Part shown: piece by piece, positions 22,121 through 41,107 of the stretch | Layout of the letters: each line of letters starts with the position of its first letter | Numbering within the stretch: position 1 is the first letter of the stretch | Origin: a virus | Lineage: Duplodnaviria; Caudoviricetes | Direction: 5' to 3' (one strand) | DNA length: 64,000 bases | IMG/VR virus record: IMGVR_UViG_3300025099_000016 | Span: 1-64,000 of that record | Translations under genes and position numbers: made by a program | The notes under the pieces: generated by a model | Databases searched by the model: none | The model's input: the letters and a program-made list of their open reading frames with translations, nothing else | What the model was told of the DNA's origin: nothing

Positions 22121-22579
22121 CTAATTATTTTTCTTCTTCTTTTGTCTTGCAGCTTTCTTAGCTCTTGCTTTAGCACCAGCATAATTAAGTCTTTTCTCTA
22201 ACTTACTAGTACCAGCTTGCGAAGCTATAGCTTTTTTCTTAGCTCTACGCTTATCTTGGCGTTTTATTTTACCAGTAGCTTCCATTTTAGTAGGTTTCAC
22301 AGCAGCTTTCTCAGGAGCTTTTACGCTCACAGGTTTGCTAGCTACACCTGGTTTAGAAACTTTACTTGATGTCTGCTCTTTCTTAGTACCAAAACTTTTA
22401 GCTTTAGCTGTAGGTTGAGTTGTACCGTATTTATTCTCATTATATCTTTCAGCAGCAGATTTAAAGGACTCGAAAGTTTTATATTTACTCTTGTCAGCAT
22501 CTTTATAAGCTTCCTTATAAGACTTTTTCATCGGTGACTCACCATGGTTACCAGAGTAACCTTTCATTTTAAAAGCCAT
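22121..22579 (-). CDS. Lys/Ala-rich basic protein, first gene of the left operon
   Basis: 152 aa, very K/A-rich. Confidence 0.6.
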   Translation of the reverse strand: MAFKMKGYSGNHGESPMKKSYKEAYKDADKSKYKTFESFKSAAERYNENKYGTTQPTAKAKSFGTKKEQTSSKVSKPGVASKPVSVKAPEKAAVKPTKMEATGKIKRQDKRRAKKKAIASQAGTSKLEKRLNYAGAKARAKKAARQKKKKNN

Positions 22580-22645
22580 AGTTATATTTTTAGATTAATT
22601 CAATGTCTTAACAGTATAATCACATTGTTATAGAATTATTTACAG

Positions 22646-22690
22646 TGTGACATTAGCTAGTTACTATTACCTTATATAGGCTATTGTCAT
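22646..22690. promoter_or_regulatory. TGTGACA dyad site A
   Basis: TGTGACA-TTAGCTAGTTACTATTACCTTATATAGGCTAT-TGTCAT; similar to sites at 24207 and 34364. Confidence 0.6.
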
Positions 22691-22739
22691 AGTTTCCCGT
22701 ATTGTAAATATTGGGGTTGGGTGTAGCCCCTCTCCTCTC

Positions 22740-23250
22740 AGCCCACCGCCCCCAATATCAAAGTCAAATCCTTTGACCCAGCCCCGTCTCATCAATCCCG
22801 ATCCGAACCCGTCCATCCAATCCGTCCCATACCCCCTACCCTACCCTACCCATACCCCACCCCTTACCCATCTCCCTCTTCCAGCTATCTAATTCTATCC
22901 ATCCATCTATCTATCCCAACCATCCAATCCACATCCCCGTCCATATCCACGTCCACAACCACATCTACATCCTCATCCATACCCTTATCCATATCCACAT
23001 CCTTATCTCTACCCAATCTCTGTCCGTATCCCTATCCTTGTCCTTATCTATACCCTGTCCATACCTCATCCATATCCATATCTATCCTCATCCCCATCCT
23101 ACGACCCATCCCCATCCTGACCTCCTCCCTGCCCCAATCCTATCCCTTTCCCCAACCATCCACATCCATATCTACGTCCTCATCTATGTCCCTATCCATC
23201 CTCCCACTGTCCTCCCTCCCTCTTCTCTACCCATCTACCTCTGCTCTTGA
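22740..23250. repeat. C-rich, G-poor degenerate hexamer tract (CCWYAT-like)
   Basis: 16 G in 22801-23220 (420 nt, hand count); run ccatat ccacgt ccacaa ccacat ctacat cctcat ccatac ccttat ccatat ccacat ccttat. Confidence 0.85.
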
Positions 23251-23333
23251 GCCAATTACAATTCTTATTCGGCTCAAATATACCCACTTTCTGAGCCGAT
23301 TAATAAATCTATTACCTCTTACGTATTATTTAT

Positions 23334-23365
23334 ACAAAGTTAATACGAAGTTAAATGGATAATAT
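23334..23365 (+). promoter_or_regulatory. Early promoter-like motif, copy 1
   Basis: ACAAAGTTAATACGA-N8-GGATAATAT. Confidence 0.8.
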
Positions 23366-23409
23366 ATATGTAAATCAATTAAACTATTAAACTTTAAATT
23401 CTAATTATT

Positions 23410-23649
23410 ATGCTTAAATCAAATTCAATTACTACTAAAAGATTCGTTATTCGTCAATCATTAATCGGCACTAACACTATCATTACATTCAAAACTAAGA
23501 AAGGCGATACAGTGTCATACAATCATGACAAAGTATATAATACTCACAAGTCTCGCTTCGATGCTATGAATTGTTTCGCTAAGTACAAATCGTATACTAA
23601 TTCAAATAACATTCCAGCATTCTGCCGTGACTTAGCAATACAAAGTTAA
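23410..23649 (+). CDS. Early hypothetical protein, paralog of 25264..25590
   Basis: Shares KRFV(I/V)RQSLIG.N...Y.HDK.Y...AMNC..KYKSYT..NNIP. Confidence 0.75.
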   Translation: MLKSNSITTKRFVIRQSLIGTNTIITFKTKKGDTVSYNHDKVYNTHKSRFDAMNCFAKYKSYTNSNNIPAFCRDLAIQS

Positions 23650-23671
23650 TACTATAGCAGTTGGATAATAT
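23640..23671 (+). promoter_or_regulatory. Early promoter-like motif, copy 2
   Basis: ACAAAGTTAATACTA-N8-GGATAATAT. Confidence 0.75.
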
Positions 23672-23707
23672 ACATGTAAACAAACTAAATAAACTAAATA
23701 AACTATT

Positions 23708-23857
23708 ATGATTAAGACTATTACTTTCCAAGTTGATGATAACAATGACATCTATGAAATTACTATCAATGGTATTACATATGACCTAGATACCATCTAT
23801 GATAGTCCATATGGAAAGCTCTTTGATGAATTAAACCTTGCAATTGATATAAACTAA
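23708..23857 (+). CDS. Small acidic early protein (49 aa)
   Basis: Translated by hand: MIKTITFQVDDNNDIYEITINGITYDLDTIYDSPYGKLFDELNLAIDIN; directly downstream of motif copy 2. Confidence 0.55.
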   Translation: MIKTITFQVDDNNDIYEITINGITYDLDTIYDSPYGKLFDELNLAIDIN

Positions 23858-23871
23858 ATTAAACTATTACT

Positions 23872-24030
23872 ATGAGAAAGATCTTATCTTACTTACCATT
23901 CGCTTCAGTACTATGTACTAATATCAGCTTACTATTCATGTTCGCTATAACTGGACAGCTAGGTTATCTGTCGCTACTAGTCGCAGCTGTTTTCGCCTTA
24001 GTTAATTCATTAAAACTAATTATAGAATAA
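23872..24030 (+). CDS. Small membrane protein (52 aa)
   Basis: Translated by hand: MRKILSYLPFASVLCTNISLLFMFAITGQLGYLSLLVAAVFALVNSLKLIIE. Confidence 0.5.
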   Translation: MRKILSYLPFASVLCTNISLLFMFAITGQLGYLSLLVAAVFALVNSLKLIIE

Positions 24031-24031
24031 C

Positions 24032-24211
24032 ATGCGAATAGATACTATCAACGATTGGACAATGGAAAACCTTACTAATGCCCAAGCTGCACTTACTAAG
24101 GTCTTTACCGACGAATTCTACTACAACCACGATCTAGCTATGCAAGCTAAGGAAATGGCGGATACTATGCAGGTAGCAATAGATCTTCTTGCTAAGGCGG
24201 AAAAACTGTGA
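24032..24211 (+). CDS. Small early protein, paralog of 24946..25167
   Basis: MENLTNAQAALTKVFTDEFYYNHDLA versus MKNLGDALTALSEVWTDELYYNVELA. Confidence 0.6.
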   Translation: MRIDTINDWTMENLTNAQAALTKVFTDEFYYNHDLAMQAKEMADTMQVAIDLLAKAEKL

Positions 24212-24254
24212 CATTTGCCTGTTACTATACCTAATCTAACTACCTATTGTCACA
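24207..24254. promoter_or_regulatory. TGTGACA dyad site B
   Basis: TGTGACA-N34-TGTCACA perfect inverted heptamers. Confidence 0.65.
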
Positions 24255-24265
24255 CTTTTCTACTA

Positions 24266-24338
24266 TGACAACTTGACATGACAGGTAGACAATTTGACAT
24301 GACAAAACTTCATGACAATATTTCATGACATACTGACA
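24266..24338 (+). repeat. Iteron-like cluster of TGACA direct repeats
   Basis: TGACA at 24266, 24274, 24279, 24295, 24300, 24313, 24326 and 24334, plus AGACA at 24287. Confidence 0.75.
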
Positions 24339-24392
24339 TGGTGGAATACCACGAAACTATTTTTTACTACTTAATAAATAATCCACTTTATT

Positions 24393-24424
24393 ACAAAGTT
24401 ATTACGACTTGATTTGGATAATAT
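24393..24424 (+). promoter_or_regulatory. Early promoter-like motif, copy 3
   Basis: ACAAAGTTATTACGA-N8-GGATAATAT. Confidence 0.75.
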
Positions 24425-24467
24425 ATACGTAACTAAAATAAATATAACAACTTAAAAATTAAACAAC

Positions 24468-24725
24468 ATGTCTACTATTATTAAAACTAACAATTCAACT
24501 AAAATTATAACTATTAATAACAATAAATATATTCCATTTCAACTTCATCAATTACCAAAAAATTATCAAGAAATCGAATTATCAAGTCAATTCAAACTAA
24601 ACGGTTTAATATATATTAATATAAATTCTTTAAAAAATCGTTTTAAAACTACTAAACAATTACTAAAAAATTATAATTCAACATTAACTTCAAATAAAAA
24701 TATTTCTTATACTAAATCAAGATAA
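24468..24725 (+). CDS. Early hypothetical protein, extremely G-poor coding sequence
   Basis: 85 aa; weak similarity to 26866..27072. Confidence 0.55.
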   Translation: MSTIIKTNNSTKIITINNNKYIPFQLHQLPKNYQEIELSSQFKLNGLIYININSLKNRFKTTKQLLKNYNSTLTSNKNISYTKSR

Positions 24726-24730
24726 TATTT

Positions 24731-24762
24731 ACAAAATAAATACGACTAAAGTTGGATAATAT
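24731..24762 (+). promoter_or_regulatory. Early promoter-like motif, copy 4
   Basis: ACAAAATAAATACGA-N8-GGATAATAT. Confidence 0.8.
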
Positions 24763-24796
24763 ATACGAAATTAAACTTTAAATAAAACTTAAAATT

Positions 24797-24940
24797 ATGA
24801 CTAATAAAAAATTAAAACTTGTCAAAAAACTTATAAACGAATTATACTTTGACGAATTAAATAACAAGTCAAACGACTTTGATAAAGTATTCGAAACTAT
24901 AACTGACGACTTAAAATTCATACTTAAAAATAAAATATAA
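24797..24940 (+). CDS. Small early protein (47 aa)
   Basis: Translated by hand: MTNKKLKLVKKLINELYFDELNNKSNDFDKVFETITDDLKFILKNKI. Confidence 0.5.
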   Translation: MTNKKLKLVKKLINELYFDELNNKSNDFDKVFETITDDLKFILKNKI

Positions 24941-24945
24941 TTATT

Positions 24946-25167
24946 ATGACTAAAGAAAATAAAAACTATATCTGTTGTCGAATACAACGAAATACTATGA
25001 AGAATCTTGGTGACGCACTCACGGCACTATCAGAAGTGTGGACTGACGAGTTATATTATAACGTAGAATTAGCGAACGCTTGTCACGAGTTAAGAATGAA
25101 GATAACTCCTATGATACACGAGTGTCACGAAGAATTAAATCGATTCAAGTCAATACTCGACGATTAA
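24946..25167 (+). CDS. Early hypothetical protein; start may be 24997
   Basis: Paralog of 24032..24211. Confidence 0.6.
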   Translation: MTKENKNYICCRIQRNTMKNLGDALTALSEVWTDELYYNVELANACHELRMKITPMIHECHEELNRFKSILDD

Positions 25168-25168
25168 T

Positions 25169-25200
25169 ACAAAATAAATACGATTACTATTGGATAATAT
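25169..25200 (+). promoter_or_regulatory. Early promoter-like motif, copy 5
   Basis: ACAAAATAAATACGA-N8-GGATAATAT. Confidence 0.8.
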
Positions 25201-25263
25201 ATATGTAACGAAACGAAATAAACAACTAAAATAAATTTTAAACTTAAACTAAATTAAATTACT

Positions 25264-25590
25264 ATGTCAAATTTACTTAAATCAAAAAGATTCGTCGTAA
25301 GACAATCACTAATCGGAAAAAATACTAATGTTGAAGTATCTTTCAAAAACGGAAAAACGATAACTTATTCGCACGATAAAGCGTATGAGATTATGAAAAC
25401 AGCTCTTGAAGCGATGAATTGCTGGGAAAAATACAAGTCGTATACTGCGACTAATAATATTCCGAAAGTTCTTCGAGAAACTGAAGCAGTTATCTCTTCT
25501 GAACAAACTGAAGTTGAAACTACTGACGAAGTAGTTGAAACAACAGAAGTTGAAGAAACTGAAACTGTAACTCCAGAAGTTGCATTCTAA
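25264..25590 (+). CDS. Early hypothetical protein with acidic E/T/V tail
   Basis: Paralog of 23410..23649. Confidence 0.75.
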   Translation: MSNLLKSKRFVVRQSLIGKNTNVEVSFKNGKTITYSHDKAYEIMKTALEAMNCWEKYKSYTATNNIPKVLRETEAVISSEQTEVETTDEVVETTEVEETETVTPEVAF

Positions 25591-25599
25591 ACTACGAAG

Positions 25600-25777
25600 T
25601 ATGAGTAGCCCAGTTAGTTCCACTTGTTTACTGGTAAAATCAAATATGAACAAGTCACACGAAAGTGTATTGGTTACCTAAATATAAATTATAGAGGTAT
25701 TCATGTTAGCGAGAGAAATCTTACGCTGCAGGTGAGCAGGAAGTTAACATAGTGGTTCGATTCCACTGCTTTCACTA
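25600..25777 (+). ncRNA. Candidate structured ncRNA with a tRNA-like 3' end
   Basis: GAAA-capped hairpins; perfect T-arm AGTGG-TTCGATT-CCACT at 25751-25767; ends in ACTA. Confidence 0.45.
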
Positions 25778-25955
25778 GAAATTATTAACAATTAAATTAA
25801 GAAATTATGCAAATACACTGCAAAGTATGTGGCAAAGATGTCACTATGGAAACTGAGTTCGAAACTCGTCGACCATACAGAATAATAAATAACCATAAAT
25901 GTGAAGTTAAATTAGCTCGAGCTAAAGCAAGAGCATTAGAAATGGGAATGATACT

Positions 25956-26225
25956 ATGAGAAAATCGTTATTAACTATAGCAATTTTCGCTACAGTTAGC
26001 GGATTTGCTCAAGAAAAACCAAAGTGTAGTGGTACAACTAAAGCTGGAAATCAGTGTAAAATAGTTGTGTGGAAAGAATCTTCACTATGTTGGAGACATA
26101 ATCCTAACTACGTTAAAGAAGTTATCACTCAGTCAACTACTTGTACGAGTAAAACTAAAACAGGTTTACCTTGCAAAATAAAAACTAGACACGAGAGCGG
26201 TATTTGTTATCACCACAGAGATTAA
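25956..26225 (+). CDS. Protein with N-terminal hydrophobic/signal segment and two CCCH zinc-finger-like repeats
   Basis: CSGTTKAGNQCKIVVWKESSLCWRH and CTSKTKTGLPCKIKTRHESGICYHH. Confidence 0.65.
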   Translation: MRKSLLTIAIFATVSGFAQEKPKCSGTTKAGNQCKIVVWKESSLCWRHNPNYVKEVITQSTTCTSKTKTGLPCKIKTRHESGICYHHRD

Positions 26226-26241
26226 TATTTAAAATAAAACT

Positions 26242-26466
26242 ATGAGAGGATTATTAGAAAATAAGAAAATCATGTTCCGTTACAGAGGAACAGGTAAATT
26301 CGCAGTAGCGAAAAAACGTCGTCAAGACGAAGCTATTGCTAGAAACGAAGGTTACCAGAAAATGGTAAGTACTAAAGCTGGTATCAGCGAGTATATTGCT
26401 AACACCAAGAATATTGGTAAAAAGCAGTTAGCTAAGTTGCAGTCTTTACTTAAAACTCGTAAGTAA
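26242..26466 (+). CDS. Basic hypothetical protein
   Basis: ORF track; co-oriented with the early region. Confidence 0.6.
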   Translation: MRGLLENKKIMFRYRGTGKFAVAKKRRQDEAIARNEGYQKMVSTKAGISEYIANTKNIGKKQLAKLQSLLKTRK

Positions 26467-26573
26467 TGGACTACAACGAGTTAAAAGAAGTTATGGTAGA
26501 TTTAATCGAAGCTGACGAAGTGTCAAAAACTCAGTTAAATTACATGCTGGAATTTATTCAAGGTAATGGTTAT

Positions 26574-26605
26574 ACAAACCAAATACGACGACTTATGGAT
26601 AATAT
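26574..26605 (+). promoter_or_regulatory. Early promoter-like motif, copy 6
   Basis: ACAAACCAAATACGA-N8-GGATAATAT. Confidence 0.75.
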
Positions 26606-26632
26606 AGATGAACGTTAAATAAATAAATAACT

Positions 26633-26863
26633 ATGACTAAAAAAATATTAAAAGACTACATGAAGTGTCACGAGATACAATTCATAGAGACTAACGAGAA
26701 CTTTTTGGTATGTCCAAACACTTCGTTACAACAAGAATATTTAGAGCGATGGAGTAATGAGTGGGATAGCGGACAATGTCATTTACCATTCGATAGAGAA
26801 ACTGGTAAAAACTACCTTGGAACTACTTGCTACATATTAATAATTGATAAAGTACAATTTTAA
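26633..26863 (+). CDS. Hypothetical protein
   Basis: ORF track; directly follows motif copy 6. Confidence 0.6.
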   Translation: MTKKILKDYMKCHEIQFIETNENFLVCPNTSLQQEYLERWSNEWDSGQCHLPFDRETGKNYLGTTCYILIIDKVQF

Positions 26864-26865
26864 AC

Positions 26866-27072
26866 ATGAAAATAATAAGAACAGTAAAAGAAGATAGTTG
26901 TATTTACATGCTTGAAGAGTTCGCAGGCACAACAATATCAACTAAATGGAGACCATATACTGTAGGTGATTTACCAAGTCGCTTCGGTTGTATTGATGAT
27001 GGTTCAGATAAAGGTGGATTATACGAATGGTTTAACTATAAAGGATATACTTATGTTAGAGACGAAAGATAG
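26866..27072 (+). CDS. Hypothetical protein
   Basis: ORF track. Confidence 0.6.
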   Translation: MKIIRTVKEDSCIYMLEEFAGTTISTKWRPYTVGDLPSRFGCIDDGSDKGGLYEWFNYKGYTYVRDER

Positions 27073-27206
27073 AAAGTTTACTCACGACCAAGTTATTGAA
27101 GTTGGAGGTGAATACCTAAGATGCAAAGAAACTGGTCAGTGGGTTAGTGAAAATAACGTAGAAAACTACGAAGTAGAAATGTTAAATATACAAATACAGC
27201 AATATT

Positions 27207-27524
27207 ATGAGCGAGAACAAGATAAACACTATTAACTGCGAAGACGAATTCGGAAGTGAAAAGCGAGTTCGTACGATCAAGAAATGTGAAACTAATAGAT
27301 TATTAGAAGTACTTGAGTCACAGTTGAAACACCATGATTGGTTTTACGAGTATTCTGATGACGCTAGATATTATAACTCAGGTTTACGTGAATTTACTCA
27401 GATATGGCAAACTATTGAGAAATTACAAGAGCTCGGTGAGAACGAATTTGACCAAGCTATATCTCTATACAAGCAGCATAAACCAGTAGTAAATACACCA
27501 CATGAGCGAGTTATTACAAAATAA
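27207..27524 (+). CDS. Hypothetical protein
   Basis: ORF track; LKHHDWFYEYSDD motif. Confidence 0.65.
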   Translation: MSENKINTINCEDEFGSEKRVRTIKKCETNRLLEVLESQLKHHDWFYEYSDDARYYNSGLREFTQIWQTIEKLQELGENEFDQAISLYKQHKPVVNTPHERVITK

Positions 27525-27547
27525 ATACGATTACTCGTGGATAATAT
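27516..27547 (+). promoter_or_regulatory. Early promoter-like motif, copy 7
   Basis: ACAAAATAAATACGA-N8-GGATAATAT; overlaps the upstream stop codon. Confidence 0.8.
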
Positions 27548-27562
27548 AATAAACGATACGAT

Positions 27563-27772
27563 ATGAAATGTAGATGCTCAGCAGAAATACCGCAAGGTAG
27601 ATTAAATCTTGGCTACAAGACATGTATTAACTGTTCGACAACAGCTAGATATGCCTGTGTACCAATCACAAACCACAAAACCGGTAATACAATACAGCTT
27701 GTCAGCCAAGACACTGCTGATGCTATTTACAAAGCAAGTCGTCGTAAAGGTTACGGCACTTGTTTACGATAA
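27563..27772 (+). CDS. C4 zinc-finger protein, DksA/TraR-like
   Basis: CRCSAEIPQGRLNLGYKTCINC matches the C..IP..RL....TC..C pattern. Confidence 0.55.
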   Translation: MKCRCSAEIPQGRLNLGYKTCINCSTTARYACVPITNHKTGNTIQLVSQDTADAIYKASRRKGYGTCLR

Positions 27773-27944
27773 TATTCTTGCTGAAACAGCGTTTTAACAG
27801 GAGAATAAGGCTAAAACACTCGCAGGTCTGGAACCACGCCGCTATATTCTAGTAAGCTAGATAAGTATAGTGGAACTAAGTGCAACTAGGAACCACGAAA
27901 TTTCCGCTGGAGATGGAGTTACTGACGAGTAACATAGCCGATTT

Positions 27945-28018
27945 GCCCGAGTAGCTCAACTGGATAGAGCAACGCCCTTCTAAGGCGTAGGTTATGAGTT
28001 CGAATCTCATCTCGGGTA
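27945..28018 (+). tRNA. tRNA-Arg(TCT)
   Basis: Full cloverleaf GCCCGAG-TA-GCTC..GAGC-A-ACGCC-CTTCTAA-GGCGT-AGGTT-ATGAG-TTCGAAT-CTCAT-CTCGGGT-A; followed by CTA, not CCA. Confidence 0.93.
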
Positions 28019-28034
28019 CTAAAAATTAAAGATT

Positions 28035-28229
28035 ATGAATAAACTAAACGAGTTAGCAAAAGAAATGTTTGCAGAATTTGGTTTCTGGACGTGTTCTACT
28101 GCTGAACAAGAAGAAATAGTTAAAGTTATAAAGAATGACTTACTATGGACTATTGAGGAGTTTGAGTTGGGAGGAGTAACTTCTTTTGACTGTATACAAC
28201 AAATCAAAGAAAAAGTTAAAGAATTATGA
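28035..28229 (+). CDS. Hypothetical protein
   Basis: ORF track. Confidence 0.55.
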   Translation: MNKLNELAKEMFAEFGFWTCSTAEQEEIVKVIKNDLLWTIEEFELGGVTSFDCIQQIKEKVKEL

Positions 28230-28381
28230 ATGAAAATTGGCAAGTAGTTTGTTACTCAAAAGAATCAGATTGGGAACAAGTGGTACGAAGAAACTTATCA
28301 GAGGAGAACGCTTATGAAATATTAGCAGAAATGAACTCTCAAGAAGCAAATGGTTACCAAGGTTTCTATGTGAATAGATGT

Positions 28382-28413
28382 ACAAACTAAATACGAACGC
28401 TCATGGATAATAT
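28382..28413 (+). promoter_or_regulatory. Early promoter-like motif, copy 8
   Basis: ACAAACTAAATACGA-N8-GGATAATAT. Confidence 0.8.
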
Positions 28414-28415
28414 CT

Positions 28416-28646
28416 ATGAACAAATTAATTAAAACTATGTATATAACAGTATTAGACTTCGAAGAAGGACGAGTACATCAGTATGATATTACTACTAATG
28501 ATACTCACCCTAATAGCAATAGAATAGATTGGCCAGATGCAGAAGCAATTGAAGACTTTCTAATCGGTGAAGGTCATCGTTTAGGTAATCTAGAGTGGAT
28601 GTCACACTCGGATGGTGAAATAATAACAGATAAAGCAGAGATATGA
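28416..28646 (+). CDS. Hypothetical protein
   Basis: ORF track. Confidence 0.6.
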   Translation: MNKLIKTMYITVLDFEEGRVHQYDITTNDTHPNSNRIDWPDAEAIEDFLIGEGHRLGNLEWMSHSDGEIITDKAEI

Positions 28647-29353
28647 GTAACAGATATTTAGATGAAGCTGGTGAAATAACTAGCAAGCAAATCGACACAA
28701 CTATAAAAGATCGTACTGATGCACTTGGTTTCTTTAAACTAATGGGTATCAAAGAGATAACTACTGCTCGTCAGAAGAAAAACGGTACAACAGTTTATGA
28801 GTTACCTATTCGTAAATTAAGCTATACAGGTAATTCTTATGCTTACAGATACGCTATTTATGACTCAGGTTACATACGAGATGTCAGTGAACACTGTAGT
28901 TCTCCGTGGTATATTAACAAAAGATACGAGACTAAAAGTAAATACTGGAATAGTTACTATAAAGAGTACTACACCTATACAGGTAGTAAACCAGTATTTA
29001 TAGATAATCTTGGTGACCAACTTGTTTACTTAGCTAATTATATACTTAAAAACCGCTATGGTAGTAAGTTATATAGCTGTTGTGACTGGAATGTTGAGCA
29101 GATTAGAGAGCAACGTGAGTTCATGCACAATGCTAAGTGGGAGGGTAATACGGTTACTATATCACGTGATGAGTATAACGAGTTGAGAAAAGCAAAACCG
29201 TTAGCTTTTACTGGAAACACAGTAAATATACCCACTAGTGAGTATGAAGCTATGTGTGCTAAGATTGACGCTGACGAGTTAGAAAAAATATCCGGTGGGG
29301 CACAAGACAAAGTAGAGGTATTTATTAATGGACATAGATATAATTTATCATGA
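28643..29353 (+). CDS. Hypothetical protein
   Basis: 236 aa, overlapping stop/start with both neighbours. Confidence 0.7.
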   Translation: MSNRYLDEAGEITSKQIDTTIKDRTDALGFFKLMGIKEITTARQKKNGTTVYELPIRKLSYTGNSYAYRYAIYDSGYIRDVSEHCSSPWYINKRYETKSKYWNSYYKEYYTYTGSKPVFIDNLGDQLVYLANYILKNRYGSKLYSCCDWNVEQIREQREFMHNAKWEGNTVTISRDEYNELRKAKPLAFTGNTVNIPTSEYEAMCAKIDADELEKISGGAQDKVEVFINGHRYNLS

Positions 29354-29565
29354 AATTAGAAGCAGAACACATAGAAGCAATAGCAAGTTACATGGCAGAT
29401 GACTTAGAAGATCACTTAGATATAGTATTCTGGGATGGTATAGCTCGTGTATTAGACGAGTTTAACATAGAATATGACGATATAGGTGAAATTTCTGACG
29501 AAGACTGTGACGCTATTGTAAACGAAACAAGATTAATGTTTGCACCTAAAAACGATTCACTATGA
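29350..29565 (+). CDS. Small acidic hypothetical protein
   Basis: ORF track; overlapping stop/start. Confidence 0.6.
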   Translation: MKLEAEHIEAIASYMADDLEDHLDIVFWDGIARVLDEFNIEYDDIGEISDEDCDAIVNETRLMFAPKNDSL

Positions 29566-29789
29566 AATTAACAGAAAAAGAGCTAGAAAGCGTTAAATGT
29601 ACACTAATAGATGAGACATCTGACTTTATATTAGCTAGAGTATGCGATGCAATGGTTGATAAACTAGTAGATGCAGGTAAATTATCTGAAGATGTTAGTG
29701 GTCACAACTTAGATATTGAGCAAATAGATGAGATAGTATGTAGTGTATTTAAAGGACTTTATTATGAAAAAGAGAAAACTGAACAGTAG
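29562..29789 (+). CDS. Small acidic hypothetical protein
   Basis: ORF track; overlapping stop/start. Confidence 0.6.
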   Translation: MKLTEKELESVKCTLIDETSDFILARVCDAMVDKLVDAGKLSEDVSGHNLDIEQIDEIVCSVFKGLYYEKEKTEQ

Positions 29790-29886
29790 AAACCCAAAGT
29801 ATAGACCAAAAACCACTAAAGTAGTGGAAAATAAGCGTCACGAGCTGATTTGTACAACAAAAAATGTGAAAGTATATGCTACTTTT

Positions 29887-29918
29887 ACAAACTAAATACG
29901 AACACTCATGGATAATAT
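29887..29918 (+). promoter_or_regulatory. Early promoter-like motif, copy 9
   Basis: ACAAACTAAATACGA-N8-GGATAATAT. Confidence 0.8.
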
Positions 29919-29934
29919 ATTAAATTAACAACAA

Positions 29935-30288
29935 ATGAACAGAGAAAATTTAGAAACTAGAATTAAAGAACTTGGAGTTCTTATCGAAGAGGCAAGCGGA
30001 AACGTTAAAAAATTAGTTGATGAGCAAAATACTTTGACTCAAGACTTAGAGGATTTAGATAAACCTAAGTTAACTGAAGATCAGTGGGATAAAGTAGACA
30101 ACGCAGTTACAATGGCTTGTGAAGCTTTTGATGTAGACATAGACGACTGTGAGTATGAGCTTGAACTTGATTACGATAATAGAATACAAATTAACCACTT
30201 CGATTGGAGTAGACAACAAGAAGATCTAGCTAACCACATCATGGAAAGACTCGGCGAGATGTTCGGTACAGTTAAAAACGAAGAATAA
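29935..30288 (+). CDS. Acidic coiled-coil hypothetical protein
   Basis: ORF track. Confidence 0.65.
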   Translation: MNRENLETRIKELGVLIEEASGNVKKLVDEQNTLTQDLEDLDKPKLTEDQWDKVDNAVTMACEAFDVDIDDCEYELELDYDNRIQINHFDWSRQQEDLANHIMERLGEMFGTVKNEE

Positions 30289-30289
30289 C

Positions 30290-30566
30290 TGTCGCTTTAA
30301 ACACTCAGGGAGGAGATATTAAAGCAGGTTATACGTAAGCAAACTTTAAGGTTCGACTGATTCTGGTCGCTAACGCGGAAATTAGATCCAGATAAGTGAG
30401 AAGGAATAAGGCTTACTTGTCAACTCATTAGGTTATGGGGAGTAATTCCCCGTGTAAAATTATGAAGCCTCTTTGAACGAGTTGACACCCAGCTAGGTGA
30501 TGGTCACAGGAAACACGGTTGCGCTCGTGTTGAAAACAATGAGGTTCGATTCCTCACTAGCTACTA
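30290..30566 (+). ncRNA. Candidate structured ncRNA ending in a tRNA-like domain
   Basis: 9-bp stem TGTCAACTC/GAGTTGACA; T-arm TGAGG-TTCGATT-CCTCA; AGCTAG/CTAGCT acceptor-like stem; ends in ACTA. Confidence 0.5.
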
Positions 30567-30698
30567 AATTACAAATATGAGAAGATTAATTTACGATATG
30601 TACTACGCTGAAGAGATTTCTTCTGACGCTTGCATAAAATTAATAGAAAAATTAGAACAAGTTTCTGAAAAGAGACGTAAAAAAAGAGGAAGATACTA

Positions 30699-30905
30699 AT
30701 GGCAGATATAACATTTGAAGAGATGAACGAAGCAATCAGAGAAGAGATTTATACTGATGTAATACAAGAGTTTGAATACTTGAATAGCTATATTCTCAAT
30801 GATACTGAAAAGCAAAATATTATATCAGATATAGTTGATTGCATTCTCAGAGAAAGACAGAGCCAACCTCCGTGTGAGTGTGCTGCATATGGTGGCACAA
30901 ACTAA
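30699..30905 (+). CDS. Hypothetical protein
   Basis: ORF track. Confidence 0.55.
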   Translation: MADITFEEMNEAIREEIYTDVIQEFEYLNSYILNDTEKQNIISDIVDCILRERQSQPPCECAAYGGTN

Positions 30906-30928
30906 ATACGATTAGTGTTGGATAATAT
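30897..30928 (+). promoter_or_regulatory. Early promoter-like motif, copy 10
   Basis: ACAAACTAAATACGA-N8-GGATAATAT. Confidence 0.8.
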
Positions 30929-30952
30929 TGTAAACAAATTAAATTAAACTAT

Positions 30953-31186
30953 ATGGAGAACTTATGGAAACGACTGAAACCAGCAGTTAAGACGAAAATT
31001 CTGGCAGAAAAAGATGAATATCCTTACTTAGTTAATGATGTTAAGACTCAATTAGAAAATAATAAATTCTGGACTGACTTGCCTATTGGTACAGCTAGAC
31101 AAGTTGTTAATTTTTCACACGATAGTGTGTTTGAGATTACAATGACTGACTTTATGTGGGGTGATTTATTCATTAAAAAAGCTTAA
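30953..31186 (+). CDS. Hypothetical protein
   Basis: ORF track. Confidence 0.6.
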   Translation: MENLWKRLKPAVKTKILAEKDEYPYLVNDVKTQLENNKFWTDLPIGTARQVVNFSHDSVFEITMTDFMWGDLFIKKA

Positions 31187-31188
31187 TT

Positions 31189-31470
31189 ATGACAAAAATT
31201 AAAGAACAAACAGTACCTAAATGGTTTGAAGGTGAGGTTTATGACGAAGGTGCAGTAGTCCAAAACCGATTTAGTGGCGAAGAATATGAACTTAATGCAC
31301 TTGAATTATCTATTTATGATATGATAATGGGTGCACAAATGTTTATCGAGATGAGATATAACGGTGATATGCTTGATCCTCGCACTGCAGACATGCAAAA
31401 AGATATGCGTAAAGGTTTGGATTGGTTCCGAACTCACAACGCTTCAGCTTACATGGTTCTGCTAGATTAA
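31189..31470 (+). CDS. Hypothetical protein
   Basis: ORF track. Confidence 0.65.
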   Translation: MTKIKEQTVPKWFEGEVYDEGAVVQNRFSGEEYELNALELSIYDMIMGAQMFIEMRYNGDMLDPRTADMQKDMRKGLDWFRTHNASAYMVLLD

Positions 31471-31552
31471 TGGATTGGCAAGTGTATGTTCATTTTGGCA
31501 TACTAGTATTGTGTGCATTTGAAACTAGAAAACAGACTAAATACAAAGAATA

Positions 31553-31876
31553 ATGACAACAAACGAAATTGAAAAGCAATTAAAACGCAAAGCAGAACAG
31601 CAAATACGTGAACATGTTAAAGTTATCGTTGATAATATGGCTGAATTTGCTAGAGAACATACTAATATTAACCGTAGTGGTTTGCGATGGTATAGTAATC
31701 GTGCAAAACCAGAACCTAGGTTCAACGGTGATGATGAACGACTAGATCCATTTAACCATTTTGATTGGAATGAGTTAGCTCAATTAATGAGAAGAAATAT
31801 GGAAGAAACCTTGTTAGAAACTATGGTTGAAAAGAAAACAAAAGAATTATTAAATAAAATGGACTTATTCGAATGA
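31553..31876 (+). CDS. Hypothetical protein
   Basis: ORF track. Confidence 0.65.
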   Translation: MTTNEIEKQLKRKAEQQIREHVKVIVDNMAEFAREHTNINRSGLRWYSNRAKPEPRFNGDDERLDPFNHFDWNELAQLMRRNMEETLLETMVEKKTKELLNKMDLFE

Positions 31877-32127
31877 AAGCATTTGCAATACATGAGTATA
31901 TTGTCAACGAGCTAGGTAAACAACCTAGACATAATGTATATTCTTTAGCTAGTGCTATAACGGATATAGCTGAAGAACAAGATTTAAACGAAGACAAGTT
32001 AATGAGATTACTTCTAGCTAATGAACCTATGGGTGTGTCGCACAGCTACGGGTTTCATACTAGATGGGGTAGATTTATTATTGAAGAAACACAAAACAGA
32101 TATTATGAGTATGAAGGAGAAATTTAG
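31873..32127 (+). CDS. Hypothetical protein
   Basis: ORF track; overlapping stop/start. Confidence 0.6.
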   Translation: MKAFAIHEYIVNELGKQPRHNVYSLASAITDIAEEQDLNEDKLMRLLLANEPMGVSHSYGFHTRWGRFIIEETQNRYYEYEGEI

Positions 32128-32213
32128 AGAATACGGATTCTATGCAGCTTGTACTGCTTATGTAGCACTTATAGGTAGTGTAGTAGTTAGTGCGATTTAT
32201 ATGCTTATGACTT

Positions 32214-32672
32214 ATGGCAACTAGAGCTATAGTAAGGTTCGCTACTCGCGAATCAGGTGTATCATTCAGTGAGCACCCGGATAAATGGCATGCGCAATTA
32301 TTTTGTAGATTAGACGGTCACCCTGAATCATTAGGTGTAGATATTGCTAATTCTATAGCTAACAGATGTTTTATACCACATAATTTAGAGATAGATAGTT
32401 TAGATACTAAACGCGGTGATCTAGATTATGTTTACTATGTATGGCAACATTTTGATAAATCTACATGGATTAGCATATTCGAAGCTACCGAAGCTTATTG
32501 TCCAACCTGTGGACACCGAGACCCAGATGGTGAAGAACGTATGTATGAGTGTATATTTGTAGGTGAACCTTATGATTTACAAAAGAAATTTAGAGATAAC
32601 AAACCAAGAGATTTTGATGGTAACTGGAATGGTGATAAAATCACTTGTGTAGATGTAGAAGGCACAAACTAA
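32214..32672 (+). CDS. Hypothetical protein
   Basis: 152 aa; one CPTC motif. Confidence 0.65.
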   Translation: MATRAIVRFATRESGVSFSEHPDKWHAQLFCRLDGHPESLGVDIANSIANRCFIPHNLEIDSLDTKRGDLDYVYYVWQHFDKSTWISIFEATEAYCPTCGHRDPDGEERMYECIFVGEPYDLQKKFRDNKPRDFDGNWNGDKITCVDVEGTN

Positions 32673-32695
32673 ATACGAACGCTAAAGGATAATAT
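32664..32695 (+). promoter_or_regulatory. Early promoter-like motif, copy 11
   Basis: ACAAACTAAATACGA-N8-GGATAATAT. Confidence 0.8.
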
Positions 32696-32699
32696 ATGT

Positions 32700-33795: not shown

Positions 33796-33796
33796 T

Positions 33797-34288: not shown

Positions 34289-34363
34289 GGACTTTAACCG
34301 AATTAAATACACCAAAGATGATTCCAAAAGAATCATTATTGCAACATTAAATGCCGAGGGGAC

Positions 34364-35774: not shown

Positions 35775-35847
35775 TTTAAGCGTGAAATAAATGTTAAATT
35801 TGTGTATCTATCTGTAATTATATAGGTACCGATAAACCAATATACCA

Positions 35848-39431: not shown

Positions 39432-39697
39432 TGTTTAAGAAGAAGAAAGCACCCTCCCGAAAAGCACCATTTTTACACCCATCTAAAGAGCAGTATACTG
39501 CTTGGGCTTGGTGTGTAAATAATAATATAAGTATATGTGTATTACCCGACTGGAGTAATTCTGGTAAGTGGTTAGTTGAAATAACCATGAACGAAAAGGT
39601 TACGGTAGATCCTAATACTTATAACGGTGTAGAGGCTTTAACTAAGATGTACGAATACTGTAAATACTATAAAGACAAATATGAAAATACACTTTGA
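39431..39697 (+). CDS. Hypothetical protein
   Basis: ORF track. Confidence 0.6.
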   Translation: MFKKKKAPSRKAPFLHPSKEQYTAWAWCVNNNISICVLPDWSNSGKWLVEITMNEKVTVDPNTYNGVEALTKMYEYCKYYKDKYENTL

Positions 39698-40322
39698 AAA
39701 TGCAAATGAAGCTTACGAATACTACCATGATCGTATATTACAACATGGCATATCATTTGGTGATACAAAAGCCCTATTCAATATAGGGTTTTATTTAACG
39801 AACCCATCCCTAAGGCAGATAACAAACCCTGAGCGTAAATGGAGTTTTGATTACGCTGAAGCTGAATGGCAATGGTATTTATCTGGCGACCCCAATATAA
39901 GCAAGTTAGGTGAGATATATGGTAAAGTACCAGCTATATGGGAACGTATGGCAGATCAAAATGGTTATGTTAACTCTAACTATGGTCATCAGTGGATGCG
40001 TCATGCACAGCTTGGTAATGTTATTAATATTCTTAGAGACAAGATGGAAACAAGACAAGCTGCTATAAGTATATACGATGGTAAAGAGATACATAAATAC
40101 GAGAATGACACACCATGTACATATGCAATACAGTTCACTATAATTGGTGGTAAGCTATGTATGTCAGTATATATGCGATCTAACGATTTGTGGTATGGCT
40201 TTTGTAATGATCAATACCAGTTTTCGCAACTACAAGAGTTGGTTGCATCAATGCTAGGTATTGAGATAGGTTGGTACTATCACCATGCGCACAACTTACA
40301 TTTATATAACGATAAGATATGA
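39681..40322 (+). CDS. Thymidylate synthase-fold enzyme, likely dCMP hydroxymethylase/methylase
   Basis: NSNYG, catalytic TPCT, and MRSNDLWYGFCND with Asp at the E. coli ThyA N177 position. Confidence 0.75.
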   Translation: MKIHFENANEAYEYYHDRILQHGISFGDTKALFNIGFYLTNPSLRQITNPERKWSFDYAEAEWQWYLSGDPNISKLGEIYGKVPAIWERMADQNGYVNSNYGHQWMRHAQLGNVINILRDKMETRQAAISIYDGKEIHKYENDTPCTYAIQFTIIGGKLCMSVYMRSNDLWYGFCNDQYQFSQLQELVASMLGIEIGWYYHHAHNLHLYNDKI

Positions 40323-41107
40323 AATATAAATTATACCACATACCCGGTAAGAAGATCGGTGTAACTCTCGACCCTAAACATAGGGTGGAGACTCAGCAGG
40401 GTTACGGTCCTGGTGAGTATGAAATACTAGAAGAATCTAACGATATAGATTATATATCGCATCGTGAGATTGAACTACAGAGAAGTCACGGTTATCGTGT
40501 AGACGAAACCCTTTATAAACAATTAAACCCTAATAAAGATCATATGAGAATAAATATAACAGAGCAGACTACAACATTTCCAGTACCTTTAAACAAGTTA
40601 AAAGGTCGACTTATGGATAATATAGGTATGGTTATACAAACTGGCTTTAATCGCCATGAGTTAGACACTGATTTAGTAGACTGGATAATGAAACACGCTG
40701 TTACATCTCAGTTTAACGAAGATCGTTGCTATGTATATAACAAAGCAATGTCCAACTTTAGATCAGCTACATTAGATAATACACACCATAATGGTGCTAC
40801 ATATATAGCGGCTGATATGTTTACTAAGATTAGACGTTGGGCATACGAACGTGGTATATACGATCATGGTGATTCTAAAACGCAGTATGTTAAGTTAATG
40901 GAAGAAGCTGGTGAATTAGCTGAAGCATTACTTAAGAACGATAAACCAGAGATTATAGATGCAATTGGTGATATGGTTGTTGTATTAACTAATCTAGCTA
41001 AATTAGAAAAGTTAGATATAGAAGATTGTATAGAGAACGCTTATGAAACTATATCAAAGAGAACAGGTAAAATGATGAATGGAACTTTTGTAAAAAACAC
41101 ATTATAA
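40319..41107 (+). CDS. MazG-like NTP pyrophosphohydrolase with N-terminal extra domain
   Basis: C-terminal KLMEEAGELAEAL...DAIGDMVVVL; N-terminal YKLYHIPGKKIGVT resembles GIY-YIG. Confidence 0.8.
   Translation: MKYKLYHIPGKKIGVTLDPKHRVETQQGYGPGEYEILEESNDIDYISHREIELQRSHGYRVDETLYKQLNPNKDHMRINITEQTTTFPVPLNKLKGRLMDNIGMVIQTGFNRHELDTDLVDWIMKHAVTSQFNEDRCYVYNKAMSNFRSATLDNTHHNGATYIAADMFTKIRRWAYERGIYDHGDSKTQYVKLMEEAGELAEALLKNDKPEIIDAIGDMVVVLTNLAKLEKLDIEDCIENAYETISKRTGKMMNGTFVKNTL

What the first reader, a model, noticed from the sequence alone, without database searches (positions are those of the whole stretch)
23400..25000. First early genes are purged of G on the coding strand, so the template strand is nearly C-free
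24481-24720 has 6 G in 240 nt (hand count), and neighbouring genes are also G-poor. The 24468 protein (KYIPFQLHQLPKNY..FKLNGLIYI) looks like a G-avoiding version of the 26866 protein (KWRPYTVGDLPSRF..FNYKGYTYV). This is more than AT richness, because C persists while G vanishes. Given the predicted cytosine-modifying enzyme at 39681, one hypothesis is selection for a template strand without modified C. That would let unmodified host RNAP read the first genes, or keep the first-entering DNA free of targets. Strand-biased mutation is an alternative.
Basis: partly seen in the sequence, partly recalled or inferred. Interest (0 to 1): 0.7.

Follow-up and report, generated by a model that had tools for sequence, protein, structure and literature searches.

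The report
Guanine-poor first early phage genes
The first 2 kb of the early gene block of an uncultured marine phage is written with about half the usual guanine (one gene with almost none), relatives share this, and selection seems to keep it so, but the proposed link to modified cytosine is not supported.

Summary
24481-24720 has exactly 6 G in 240 nt, the lowest of any 240-nt stretch in the window. The zone 23300-25263 has 11.2% G, against 17.9-22.0% in every same-size stretch of the later early region. C is normal at 16.0%.

The depletion is patchy. Five of the seven genes are G-poor (3-14.5% G) and two are normal (about 20%). It affects all three codon positions and the non-coding leaders.

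Profile comparison and a joint alignment confirm that the 24468 protein is a paralog of the 26866 protein. At 49 shared columns its family has 4.6% G, against 18.9% in the 26866 family, with C unchanged.

About 20 related marine phage contigs show the same dip in the first ~1 kb after their first early promoter. Strongly G-poor genes of several unrelated families occur only there (14/128 against 0/219).

The 39681 enzyme does look cytosine-specific. However, every informative relative carries it, so the proposed comparison cannot be made. The patchiness and the normal-G genes behind the same promoter type argue against a "modified-C-free template".

My best reading, at modest confidence, is selection on the immediate-early messages themselves. 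Earlier notes of this scan, which I did not verify, report similar letter-depleted early genes in other phages.

The parts
22780..23260 (.). C-rich, nearly G-free degenerate hexamer tract at the divergence point, upstream of the first early promoter. It is adjacent to the finding and probably a separate feature.
   Evidence: Per 100 nt over 22801-23300, C is 39-51 and G is 2-9. TRF finds a period-6 ATCCAT array and a CCCTA array. In relatives, tract strength does not correlate with cassette G-desert length (Spearman 0.09).
23334..23365 (+). Promoter-like motif P1 (ACAAAnnnAATACGA-N8-GGATAATAT)
   Evidence: The motif is conserved in about 40 related contigs.
23410..23649 (+). First early gene (79 aa, basic), G 12.1%. 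It is a paralog of 25264-25590.
   Evidence: BLASTP to the 25264 protein gives E 9e-29 and 54% identity. On the window's lineage it lost 9 G and gained 2, and lost 4 C and gained 14.
23640..23671 (+). Promoter-like motif P2
23708..23857 (+). Small early gene (49 aa), G 13.3%, third-position G 0.06
23872..24030 (+). Small hydrophobic early gene (52 aa), G 14.5%
   Evidence: Homologs occur in L001, L005 and L008.
24032..24211 (+). Early gene with normal G (20.6%) inside the zone. It is a paralog of 24946-25167.
24207..24350 (.). Inverted repeat plus an array of CATGACA-like repeats between the second and third units
   Evidence: Sequence read. TRF finds a period-13 array at 24298-24330. Function not tested.
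24393..24424 (+). Promoter-like motif P3
24468..24725 (+). Nearly G-free gene (85 aa, very basic): G 3.1%, C 14.0%. None of its 25 A/G-ending twofold codons ends in G.
   Evidence: The open frame of 89 codons is reached by 3 of 5000 shuffles. Homologs in L001, L056, L076 and L057 have 3.9-5.9% G, and L071 has 11.7%. It is a paralog of the 26866 family.
24731..24762 (+). Promoter-like motif P4
   Evidence: The promoter and leader are 80% identical to the P3 region.
24797..24940 (+). Small early gene (47 aa), G 8.3%, C 12.5%
   Evidence: The only homolog found is in L009.
24946..25167 (+). Early gene with normal G (19.4%) in this phage. Its homologs in L005 and L007 are G-poor (13.4% and 12.7%).
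25169..25200 (+). Promoter-like motif P5. The G-poor zone ends here.
25264..25590 (+). Normal-G paralog (17.7%) of the first early gene
26866..27072 (+). Normal-G (22.2%), acidic paralog of the nearly G-free 24468 gene
39681..40322 (+). ThyA-superfamily enzyme of the cytosine-specific (hydroxymethylase-like) kind
   Evidence: Pfam PF00303 E 6.5e-25. It scores below every NCBIfam thymidylate-synthase cut-off. Best PDB match is MilA, E 1.7e-25. Asp at the specificity position is invariant in 8 homologs.
40319..41107 (+). MazG-domain nucleotide pyrophosphohydrolase next to the ThyA-like gene
   Evidence: Pfam PF03819 E 5.3e-8

Best explanation
The G-poor stretch is a position-specific property of the sense strand of the immediate-early cassette, and selection maintains it. 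The cassette is a 1.9-kb, promoter-dense block of small genes whose content varies between relatives. It heads the early operon of a clade of marine phages, probably of Flavobacteriia.

I propose that the message or its synthesis is what selection acts on. I do not think it is the protein, a regional mutation bias, or the modified-cytosine content of the template. Transcripts that are G-poor, A-rich and keep their C barely fold and are poor at forming stable RNA-DNA hybrids. In a host that starts translation on unstructured A-rich leaders without a Shine-Dalgarno sequence, such messages could be translated at once, while host messages still compete.

**Shown:** the depletion, its position, its conservation, its spread over unrelated gene families, its presence at synonymous, non-synonymous and non-coding sites, and the weak predicted folding.

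**Inferred:** that RNA is the target of selection, and what the benefit is.
For: 1. **Nucleotide-level, not protein-level.** In the five G-poor genes G falls at every codon position: G1 .169 against .309, G2 .068 against .155, G3 .046 against .147. It also falls in non-coding DNA, 7.7% against 17.7%. C is unchanged.
2. **Controlled paralog test.** At 49 aligned columns the 24468 family has 4.6% G (.068/.048/.024 by codon position). The 26866 family has 18.9% (.262/.200/.104). C is 16.9% against 15.1%.
3. **Maintained across lineages.** Homologs only 37-45% identical keep 3-6% G. Synonymous G is 8/136 at A/G sites and 1/126 at fourfold sites, while C at C/T sites is 32%.
4. **Positional and multi-family.**
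   - In 21 relatives, G is 13-16% for the first ~1 kb after the first promoter. It then plateaus at 19-20%, with C flat at 14-15%.
   - Genes with G more than 3 sd below their own genome's background number 14/128 inside 2 kb and 0/219 beyond (Fisher p 5e-7). By inspection they come from at least seven gene families.
   - 100-nt windows with at most 8 G cover 295 nt of the first 2 kb, against 6 nt of the next 2 kb.
5. **Gene-by-gene mosaic.** Genes of normal G sit inside the same presumed units. In L056 the 5.9%-G gene is flanked by genes with 17% G.
6. **Predicted folding.** MFE per 120 nt is -11.4 kcal/mol in the cassette against -19.2 later (p 4e-5). It is -3.6 to -5.0 over 24380-24740.
7. 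**Translation context.** Only 8 of 85 genes have an SD-like 4-mer, and A is 45-68% at most positions from -14 to -3.
Against: - No expression data exist, so 'immediate-early' and 'highly expressed' are inferred from position and promoter density.
- Weak folding follows automatically from low G, so it is not independent evidence.
- The genome-wide 5' ramp of low G covers only about 10 codons. Start-site accessibility alone does not explain whole genes being G-poor.
- Leader length does not predict G, whereas distance from the first promoter does.
- In relatives taken as a whole, the depletion lies at codon positions 1 and 2 and not at position 3. That also fits a change in amino-acid composition.
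- On the window's lineage the first gene both lost G and gained C. A purely 'unstructured RNA' model does not predict the C gain.
Confidence: 0.35

Rival explanations
1. A strand-asymmetric mutation process has eroded G on the sense strand. It would be tied to very heavy early transcription, or to a replication origin next to the cassette.
For: - Non-coding, synonymous and non-synonymous sites are all affected.
- The cumulative GC-skew minimum lies near 25000, not at the transcription switch near 23300.
- On the window's lineage the first gene shows G>A 6 and T>C 9, against A>G 1 and C>T 4.
- An AT-rich stretch and a repeat array at 24207-24350 could be origin-like.
Against: - Genes 24032 and 24946 inside the zone have normal third-position G, 26/130 against 14/307 in the five poor genes.
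- Boundaries are sharp between neighbouring genes.
- Elsewhere in the genome third-position G and C are nearly equal on both arms (.147/.135 and .146/.127). The genome's skew therefore comes from coding, not from replication-linked mutation.
- The control gene 25264 also shows G>A 9 against A>G 4, so part of the trend is lineage-wide.
Confidence: 0.2
2. The C-over-G composition makes the first transcripts loading sites for the termination factor Rho. Early expression would then depend on translation, or on a phage anti-terminator. This may include a leader read through the C-rich tract.
For: - Rut sites are unstructured and sometimes C-rich (PMC2988021).
- The zone has C>G throughout, and no intrinsic terminator is predicted on the + strand.
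- G loss came with C gain on the window's lineage.
- Within two presumed units the promoter-proximal genes are G-poor and the distal gene is normal.
Against: - C in 24400-25000 is only 9-16% per 100 nt, so the stretch is G-poor rather than C-rich.
- The stretch is coding and would be covered by ribosomes.
- The proximal-to-distal trend is not seen in relatives.
- No promoter is shown upstream of the C-rich tract.
- The host and its Rho are unknown.
Confidence: 0.12
3. A DNA-level defence reading: the zone keeps one strand nearly free of (modified) cytosine. Nucleases that need G and C, or modified C, on both strands would then find no target before the phage's own protection is made.
For: - The - strand has 6 C in 240 nt at 24471-24710 and 2-5 per 100 nt across most of the C-rich tract.
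- The phage probably hydroxymethylates cytosine.
- The five clustered promoters at the head of the early block resemble, from my own knowledge, the layout at the leading end of T7.
Against: - The depletion is incomplete. G is 11-23 per 100 nt over 23500-24300.
- The + strand keeps 14-20% C.
- Nothing shows that this DNA enters first. The record is a circular assembly opened inside a tail gene.
Confidence: 0.1
4. One reading: a template strand without modified cytosine lets the unmodified host RNA polymerase read the first genes.
For: - The enzyme at 39681 is of the cytosine-specific kind, and 11 relatives carry it or a close homolog.
- The template strand of 24400-25000 has only 37 C in 600 nt.
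Against: - Most of the zone still has 11-21% G.
- Seven later copies of the same promoter motif drive genes with normal G.
- T4 early genes are read by the host polymerase from fully modified DNA (PMC2988021).
- The promoters are not of the host's Bacteroidota type.
- No relative lacking the enzyme was available for comparison.
Confidence: 0.07
5. It is a by-product. These are short, fast-evolving accessory genes for basic, Asn/Lys/Ile/Thr-rich proteins, and low G simply reflects their amino-acid make-up and high-expression codon choice.
For: - In relatives as a whole the deficit is at codon positions 1 and 2, not position 3.
- Gly, Ala, Val, Asp and Glu make up 17% of residues, against 31% elsewhere.
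- By my count from the sequences, the 24468 and 23410 proteins are strongly basic.
- Presumed abundant late structural genes also have low third-position G.05-.12.
- Gene content of the zone varies between close relatives.
Against: - Non-coding DNA in the zone is equally G-poor.
- Synonymous G in the 24468 family is 3-4 times below background, while synonymous C is not.
- At least seven unrelated families show the effect, and only in this position.
- Other equally short early genes further on have normal G.
Confidence: 0.1

Closest known systems
PeSL (promoter-early stem-loop) cassettes in the hyperplastic regions of T4-type phages (PMC2839356, PMC4122927)
   Same: Repeated copies of an early promoter motif flank small early genes of unknown function, and gene content differs between close relatives. 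Here there are five motif copies in 1.9 kb. The P3 and P4 promoter-leader regions are 80% identical, and genes are gained or lost between relatives.
   Different: The promoter sequence is different, and no stem-loop terminator is predicted on the + strand. I know of no report of letter depletion in PeSL cassettes. Modular shuffling at these motifs was not demonstrated here.
Rho utilisation (rut) regions, such as those between immediate-early and delayed-early genes of T4 and at lambda tR1
   Same: The RNA is G-poor, has C over G, is unstructured, and lies at the head of an early operon.
   Different: Here the stretch is mostly protein-coding and A-rich rather than C-rich. No Rho dependence or termination point is known.
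Transcription-linked strand asymmetry (Szybalski's purine rule; GC skew that follows gene direction in phages)
   Same: This is a compositional asymmetry between sense and template strands. The rest of this genome follows the rule, with sense-strand skew mostly +0.1 to +0.4.
   Different: In the cassette the sign for G is reversed (skew -0.07 to -0.64), while A stays high. The effect extends to synonymous and non-coding sites, where the rest of the genome shows almost no skew.
Cytosine hydroxymethylases of the ThyA superfamily (T4 gp42 dCMP hydroxymethylase; Streptomyces MilA CMP hydroxymethylase)
   Same: The 39681 protein has the ThyA fold signature and aligns best to MilA. It has Asp where dUMP-specific enzymes have Asn.
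   Different: It is short, at 213 aa. The substrate (dCMP or CMP) and any actual DNA modification are untested. Its relation to the G-poor zone is only a conjecture.
Letter-depleted ('three-letter') early genes and leaders noted earlier in this scan in other phages (e1-5973913, e1-5726458, e1-4858148, e1-371045)
   Same: These are small early phage genes or leaders, several from marine or Flavobacterium-type phages. One base is nearly absent from the message strand, and the notes report that relatives share this.
   Different: These are AI notes that I did not verify. Some of those cases lack C rather than G. The genomes are unrelated to this one, as no look-alike stretch was found.

Membership tests
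Cytosine-specific hydroxymethylase branch of the ThyA superfamily (for 39681-40322) | Thymidylate-synthase fold signature | tested here: met
   Pfam PF00303 E 6.5e-25, 88 bits against a cut-off of 24.3. PHROG thymidylate synthase families reach E 1.5e-39.
Cytosine-specific hydroxymethylase branch of the ThyA superfamily (for 39681-40322) | Asp instead of Asn at the base-specificity position (E. coli ThyA Asn177, T4 gp42 Asp179: established knowledge) | tested here: met
   In the motif MRSNDLWYGFCND, the final Asp aligns with the Asp in MilA's YMRANDAFRGAVSD. It is invariant in the window protein and 7 relatives.
Cytosine-specific hydroxymethylase branch of the ThyA superfamily (for 39681-40322) | Closer to known cytosine hydroxymethylases than to canonical thymidylate synthases | tested here: met
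   MilA E 1.7e-25; best ThyA 1.2e-16; T4 dCMP hydroxymethylase 7.9e-11. It scores far below all NCBIfam ThyA equivalog cut-offs.
Cytosine-specific hydroxymethylase branch of the ThyA superfamily (for 39681-40322) | Hydroxymethylation of dCMP, and replacement of C in virion DNA | not testable with these tools
   This needs an enzyme assay and nucleoside LC-MS of virion DNA.
Rho-dependent terminator / rut region | A stretch of about 80 nt or more of unstructured RNA with C over G | tested here: met
   Sense-strand C exceeds G in six of the seven cassette genes, and the seventh is near parity. MFE is -3.6 to -5.0 kcal/mol per 120 nt at 24380-24740.
Rho-dependent terminator / rut region | Rho-dependent release at a downstream pause, in RNA free of ribosomes | not testable with these tools
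   The stretch is mostly coding. The host and its Rho are unknown.
Bidirectional replication origin (as the cause of the skew switch) | A mutational GC skew at synonymous sites that changes sign at the origin | tested here: not met
   Third-position G and C are nearly equal on both arms outside the cassette.147/.135 for + strand genes and .146/.127 for - strand genes. The cumulative-skew minimum near 25000 therefore reflects coding, not replication.
PeSL-type mobile early cassettes | Repeated early promoter motif flanking small variable early genes | tested here: met
   Five motif copies lie in 1.9 kb. Gene content varies between relatives.
PeSL-type mobile early cassettes | Stem-loop terminator paired with each promoter | tested here: not met
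   No terminator-like hairpin is predicted on the + strand in 23300-25300.
Paralogy of the 24468 and 26866 proteins | Significant profile-profile similarity and shared conserved residues | tested here: met
   hhalign gives probability 96% and E 2.9e-9 over 51 columns. In the 20-sequence joint alignment, Gly and Tyr are invariant and Pro, Leu, Pro and Phe nearly so. Pairwise BLASTP is negative.

The most novel reading that the evidence does not exclude
Immediate-early phage genes written with as little of one base as their proteins allow are an adaptation to a base-specific threat or shortage at the onset of infection. For example, the threat could be a guanine-dependent ribonuclease, the shortage could be of GTP, or a nuclease could need modified cytosine on both strands. 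This clade would then be the G-avoiding counterpart of the C-free early genes that this scan has noted in other marine phages.
Probability: 0.15. Interest if true: 0.8.

Novelty: new variant of a known kind. Interest (0 to 1): 0.55.

Why it matters
Strand asymmetry in phage genomes is usually explained by transcription direction, replication or plain AT richness. Here a small, defined block at the start of infection runs against the genome's own rule. A protein has been rewritten in a near three-letter alphabet, and that state has been kept in lineages that are now only about 40% identical.

If selection on the message or template is confirmed, sequence alone would give a readable signature of what a phage faces in its first minute in the cell. 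Candidates are competition for ribosomes, termination factors, ribonucleases, nucleotide pools or nucleases. The signature would apply to an abundant, uncultured group of marine phages, and it would give concrete genes to recode and test. It also shows that the presence of a cytosine-modifying enzyme does not by itself explain such skews.

Tried and rejected
- **DNA search of phage records** (blastn, 5 kb of the zone): no match. The phage has no close cultured relative, and its GroEL is under 60% identical to any phage record.
- **Cellulophaga phage phi38:1 as a possible identity:** its published early genes do not fit this genome.
- **Families for the cassette proteins:** Pfam and PHROGs gave nothing significant. 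The ESM Atlas gave no usable hit.
- **Structure of the 24468 protein:** the AlphaFold model built on the 20-sequence alignment is a small four-strand-plus-helix domain with mean pLDDT 68.6. Foldseek found no PDB match at E <= 0.001. The function stays unknown.
- **Comparison with relatives lacking the cytosine-type enzyme:**
  - Eleven records have a match.
  - No tested record without a match has any ThyA-family gene.
  - The one such record rated 100% complete (G004) is in fact cut 2.7 kb into the early region.
The test could not be made.
- **General low-G ramp at gene starts:** it covers only about 10 codons.
- **Leader length as a predictor of gene G:** it is not one, whereas distance from the first promoter is.
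- **Common cause for the C-rich tract and the G-poor cassette:** there is no correlation across relatives.
- **C-poor mirror genes in this clade:** only a mild, composition-driven case follows the 24468 homolog in L056 and L076.
Full report
**What the window is**

The window is the first 64 kb of a 72,097-bp virus record. The two ends of the record overlap by about 766 bp at 94-97% identity. The record is therefore a circular assembly opened at an arbitrary point inside a tail-type gene.

Late genes lie on the - strand at 1-22579 and 44792-72097. They include the portal, large terminase, a capsid-type virion structural protein, GroEL and a 2992-aa giant protein. Early and replication genes lie on the + strand at 23410-44626. 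They include a ligase, a sigma factor, a primase-helicase, a ThyA-like enzyme, a MazG-domain protein and ribonucleotide reductase.

Only 8 of 85 genes have a Shine-Dalgarno-like 4-mer, and the start regions are A-rich. Phage records with a related GroEL include many Flavobacterium and some Cellulophaga phages, all below 60% identity. Established knowledge of Bacteroidota translation initiation makes a Flavobacteriia host likely, but this is not proven. No cultured phage is close.

**The observation**

The hand count is exact: 24481-24720 holds 6 G, 34 C, 119 A and 81 T. No other 240-nt stretch of the window has so few G.

The zone 23300-25263 has 11.2% G and 16.0% C. Every same-size stretch of the later + strand region has 17.9-22.0% G and 13.0-17.6% C.

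Sense-strand G per gene is .121.133.145.206.031.083 and .194 for the seven genes from 23410 to 24946. Nearly all other credible genes in the genome have about .165-.25.

G falls at all three codon positions. In the five poor genes G1, G2 and G3 are .169.068 and .046, against .309.155 and .147 elsewhere. It also falls in the non-coding DNA of the zone, 7.7% against 17.7%, while C does not move. So the effect is more than AT richness.

Several caveats apply.
- The depletion is patchy, and two genes (24032 and 24946) are normal.
- Only about 0.6 kb is nearly G-free.
- The poorest gene is the fifth, not the first.
- In the window's copy of 24468, third-position C is also low. There, C persists only through Thr, Ser, Gln, Leu, Pro and His codons.

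The 24468 frame is a real gene. Its 89-codon open run is reached by 3 of 5000 shuffles. Its length is conserved in the closest relative, and the two copies differ at 9 codons synonymously and at 11 non-synonymously.

**The paralog claim**

Pairwise BLASTP sees nothing between the 24468 and 26866 proteins. Profiles built from six and seventeen homologs found in related contigs align with probability 96% and E 2.9e-9.

A joint 20-sequence alignment shows an invariant Gly and Tyr, and nearly invariant Pro, Leu, Pro and Phe. Members such as L060 and L068 look intermediate between the two groups.

At the 49 columns shared by both families:
- G is 4.6% in the 24468 family and 18.9% in the 26866 family.
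- The drop is about fourfold at each codon position.
- C is 16.9% against 15.1%.

In the window's 24468 gene, seven of the eight G sit in codons that cannot avoid G: Met, Gly, two Glu and two Arg.

A second paralog pair, 23410 and 25264 (E 9e-29), shows a weaker version of the same effect. Of 21 genomes with both copies, the copy nearer the first promoter is the G-poorer one in 17 (mean difference -0.023). C and third-position G are unchanged. These pairs are not phylogenetically independent.

**Surroundings**

Five near-identical copies of a promoter-like motif lie at 23334-25200. A looser search finds 12 copies of ACAAAnnnAATACGA-N8-GGATAATAT on the + strand from 23334 to 37165, each just upstream of a gene; two further GGATAATAT sites, at 19709 and 40615, lack the upstream half. 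The motif is conserved in about 40 related contigs.

It is not the Bacteroidota housekeeping type. No TAnnTTTG box lies on the + strand in 22400-26000. The G-poor zone coincides with the five densely packed copies, which have long A-rich leaders. Genes behind the seven later copies have normal G.

No intrinsic terminator is predicted on the + strand in the zone.

Upstream lies a 480-bp C-rich, nearly G-free hexamer tract.

**Relatives**

GroEL anchored 80 loci from IMG/VR at 69-92% identity. In the 21 loci that cover the junction:
- Mean G is 12.3% in the 250 nt before the first promoter.
- It is 13.1, 14.9, 16.0 and 16.5% in the next four 250-nt bins.
- It then plateaus near 19%, with C flat at 14-15%.

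A meta-profile around 188 motif copies shows that the dip belongs to the first three promoters, not to transcript starts in general.

Genes whose G lies more than 3 sd below their own genome's background number 14 of 128 within 2 kb of the first promoter and 0 of 219 beyond it (Fisher p 5e-7). By inspection they come from at least seven families.

Windows of 100 nt with at most 8 G cover 295 nt of the first 2 kb, on average, against 6 nt of the next 2 kb.

The 24468 family keeps 3-6% G in five of six members that are only 37-45% identical. Synonymous G is 8/136 at A/G sites and 1/126 at fourfold sites, but synonymous C is normal. At that divergence synonymous sites should be largely saturated, so the state must be actively maintained.

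The strength of the upstream C-rich tract does not predict the length of the G-poor stretch in the cassette (Spearman 0.09). I therefore treat them as separate features.

**The cytosine-modification premise**

The 39681 protein matches the thymidylate-synthase family but falls far below every curated ThyA cut-off. Its best solved relative is the CMP hydroxymethylase MilA (E 1.7e-25). Canonical ThyA scores 1e-16 to 1e-14, and T4 dCMP hydroxymethylase 8e-11. Asp occupies the position where dUMP-specific enzymes have Asn, and it is invariant in eight homologs. A MazG-domain protein follows. A cytosine hydroxymethylase is a reasonable call. Whether the DNA is modified is untested.

**The proposed link**

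Eleven relatives have the enzyme or a close homolog. None of the five no-match records I scanned has any ThyA-family gene. The one no-match record rated complete is in fact cut 2.7 kb into the early region.

Indirect evidence goes against the 'polymerase needs a C-free template' version.
- The zone is a mosaic.
- Most of it still has 11-21% G.
- Genes behind the same promoter type further on are normal.
- T4 shows that a host polymerase reads fully modified DNA (PMC2988021).

The 'target-free first-entering DNA' version needs a genome end near 23 kb.

**Mutation or selection**

A regional mutation bias is weakened by three points.
- Normal-G genes sit inside the zone: third-position G is 26/130 in them, against 14/307 in the poor genes.
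- Boundaries are sharp in relatives. In L056, genes with 17% G flank the 5.9% gene.
- Synonymous skew is nearly absent elsewhere in the genome.

Mutation bias is not excluded, however. On the window's lineage the first gene lost 9 G and gained 2, and lost 4 C and gained 14. G>A and T>C were the commonest changes. The control gene also shows more G>A than A>G.

A protein-only explanation fails on the non-coding and synonymous evidence. It may still account for much of the weaker effect seen across relatives, where third-position G is not reduced.

**Best reading**

I think selection acts on the immediate-early messages or their synthesis.

Such RNA is predicted to be almost unfolded. MFE is -3.6 to -5.0 kcal/mol per 120 nt at 24380-24740, against about -19 later. 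The host appears to start translation on A-rich, unstructured leaders.

I put this at 0.35, because weak folding follows automatically from low G and no expression data exist.

The rivals are:
- strand-biased mutation (0.20);
- Rho loading (0.12);
- a DNA-level defence reading (0.10);
- a by-product of protein make-up (0.10);

**Relation to what is known**

The architecture resembles the PeSL cassettes of T4-type phages (PMC2839356, PMC4122927), but without the stem-loop. The composition resembles rut regions. The sign of the skew is opposite to the usual purine rule that the rest of this genome obeys.

Earlier notes of this scan report C-free or G-poor early genes and leaders in other phages. 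I did not check them. If they hold, this clade is one more case of a wider, undescribed habit of early phage genes. I found no published description of a nearly G-free protein-coding early gene kept by selection, though my literature search was limited.

**Verdict**

I rate it a new variant of a known kind, with interest 0.55.

Noticed in passing
window 1-805 and G000 71332-72097; - strand ORF 3-4685: The two ends of the record overlap at only 94-97% identity. A - strand ORF of more than 1561 aa runs off the left end, and by homology it continues into the 1026-aa ORF at 68916-71996. The record seems to be a circular assembly opened inside one tail-type gene of roughly 2.3 kaa, with two population variants co-assembled.
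   Followed up: partly
window 23334-37165, + strand: Twelve copies of ACAAAnnnAATACGA-N8-GGATAATAT are conserved across about 40 related contigs. The spacing (ATACGA, 8 nt, GGA) recalls T7-class promoters. Several later copies sit only 2-15 nt before the start codon (for example 28405 before 28416), which suggests near-leaderless messages. What reads them is unknown. No single-subunit polymerase gene was seen among the early genes.
   Followed up: partly
window 23275-23282, - strand: A perfect Bacteroidota-type -7 box (TATATTTG) points leftward into the C-rich tract. A leftward transcript from it would be a G-rich repeat RNA running ahead of the late genes. No well-spaced -33 TTG was found.
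   Followed up: no
window 27945-28019, + strand: A tRNA-Arg (anticodon TCT) gene lies among the early genes.
   Followed up: no
window 52723-61701, - strand: The 2992-aa protein matches an ATPase and a polynucleotide kinase PHROG family at residues 1882-2083. This fits an earlier scan note of an RNA-repair-type module in a giant virion protein. No match to a virion RNA polymerase family was found.
   Followed up: partly
loci L001-L080 (contig ends relative to GroEL): Twenty-seven of the 80 related contigs end 2.0-3.5 kb beyond GroEL, which is inside the junction and early cassette. Metagenome assemblies seem to break there. The cause could be hypervariable gene content, the C-rich repeats, or a physical genome end.
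   Followed up: no
L056 (- strand) about 6370-6565 and L076 (- strand) about 4989-5205: In two relatives the gene right after the 6%-G gene encodes an acidic protein and is C-poor (6-7% C, 2.6-3.4 sd below background). Neighbouring early genes can therefore be depleted in opposite letters.
   Followed up: partly
window 24207-24350: An inverted repeat with TGTGACA-like arms is followed by about six CATGACA-like repeats, between the second and third early units. An earlier scan note links similar arms at 22646-22690 and 34364-34409 to a possible repressor. I did not test this.
   Followed up: no
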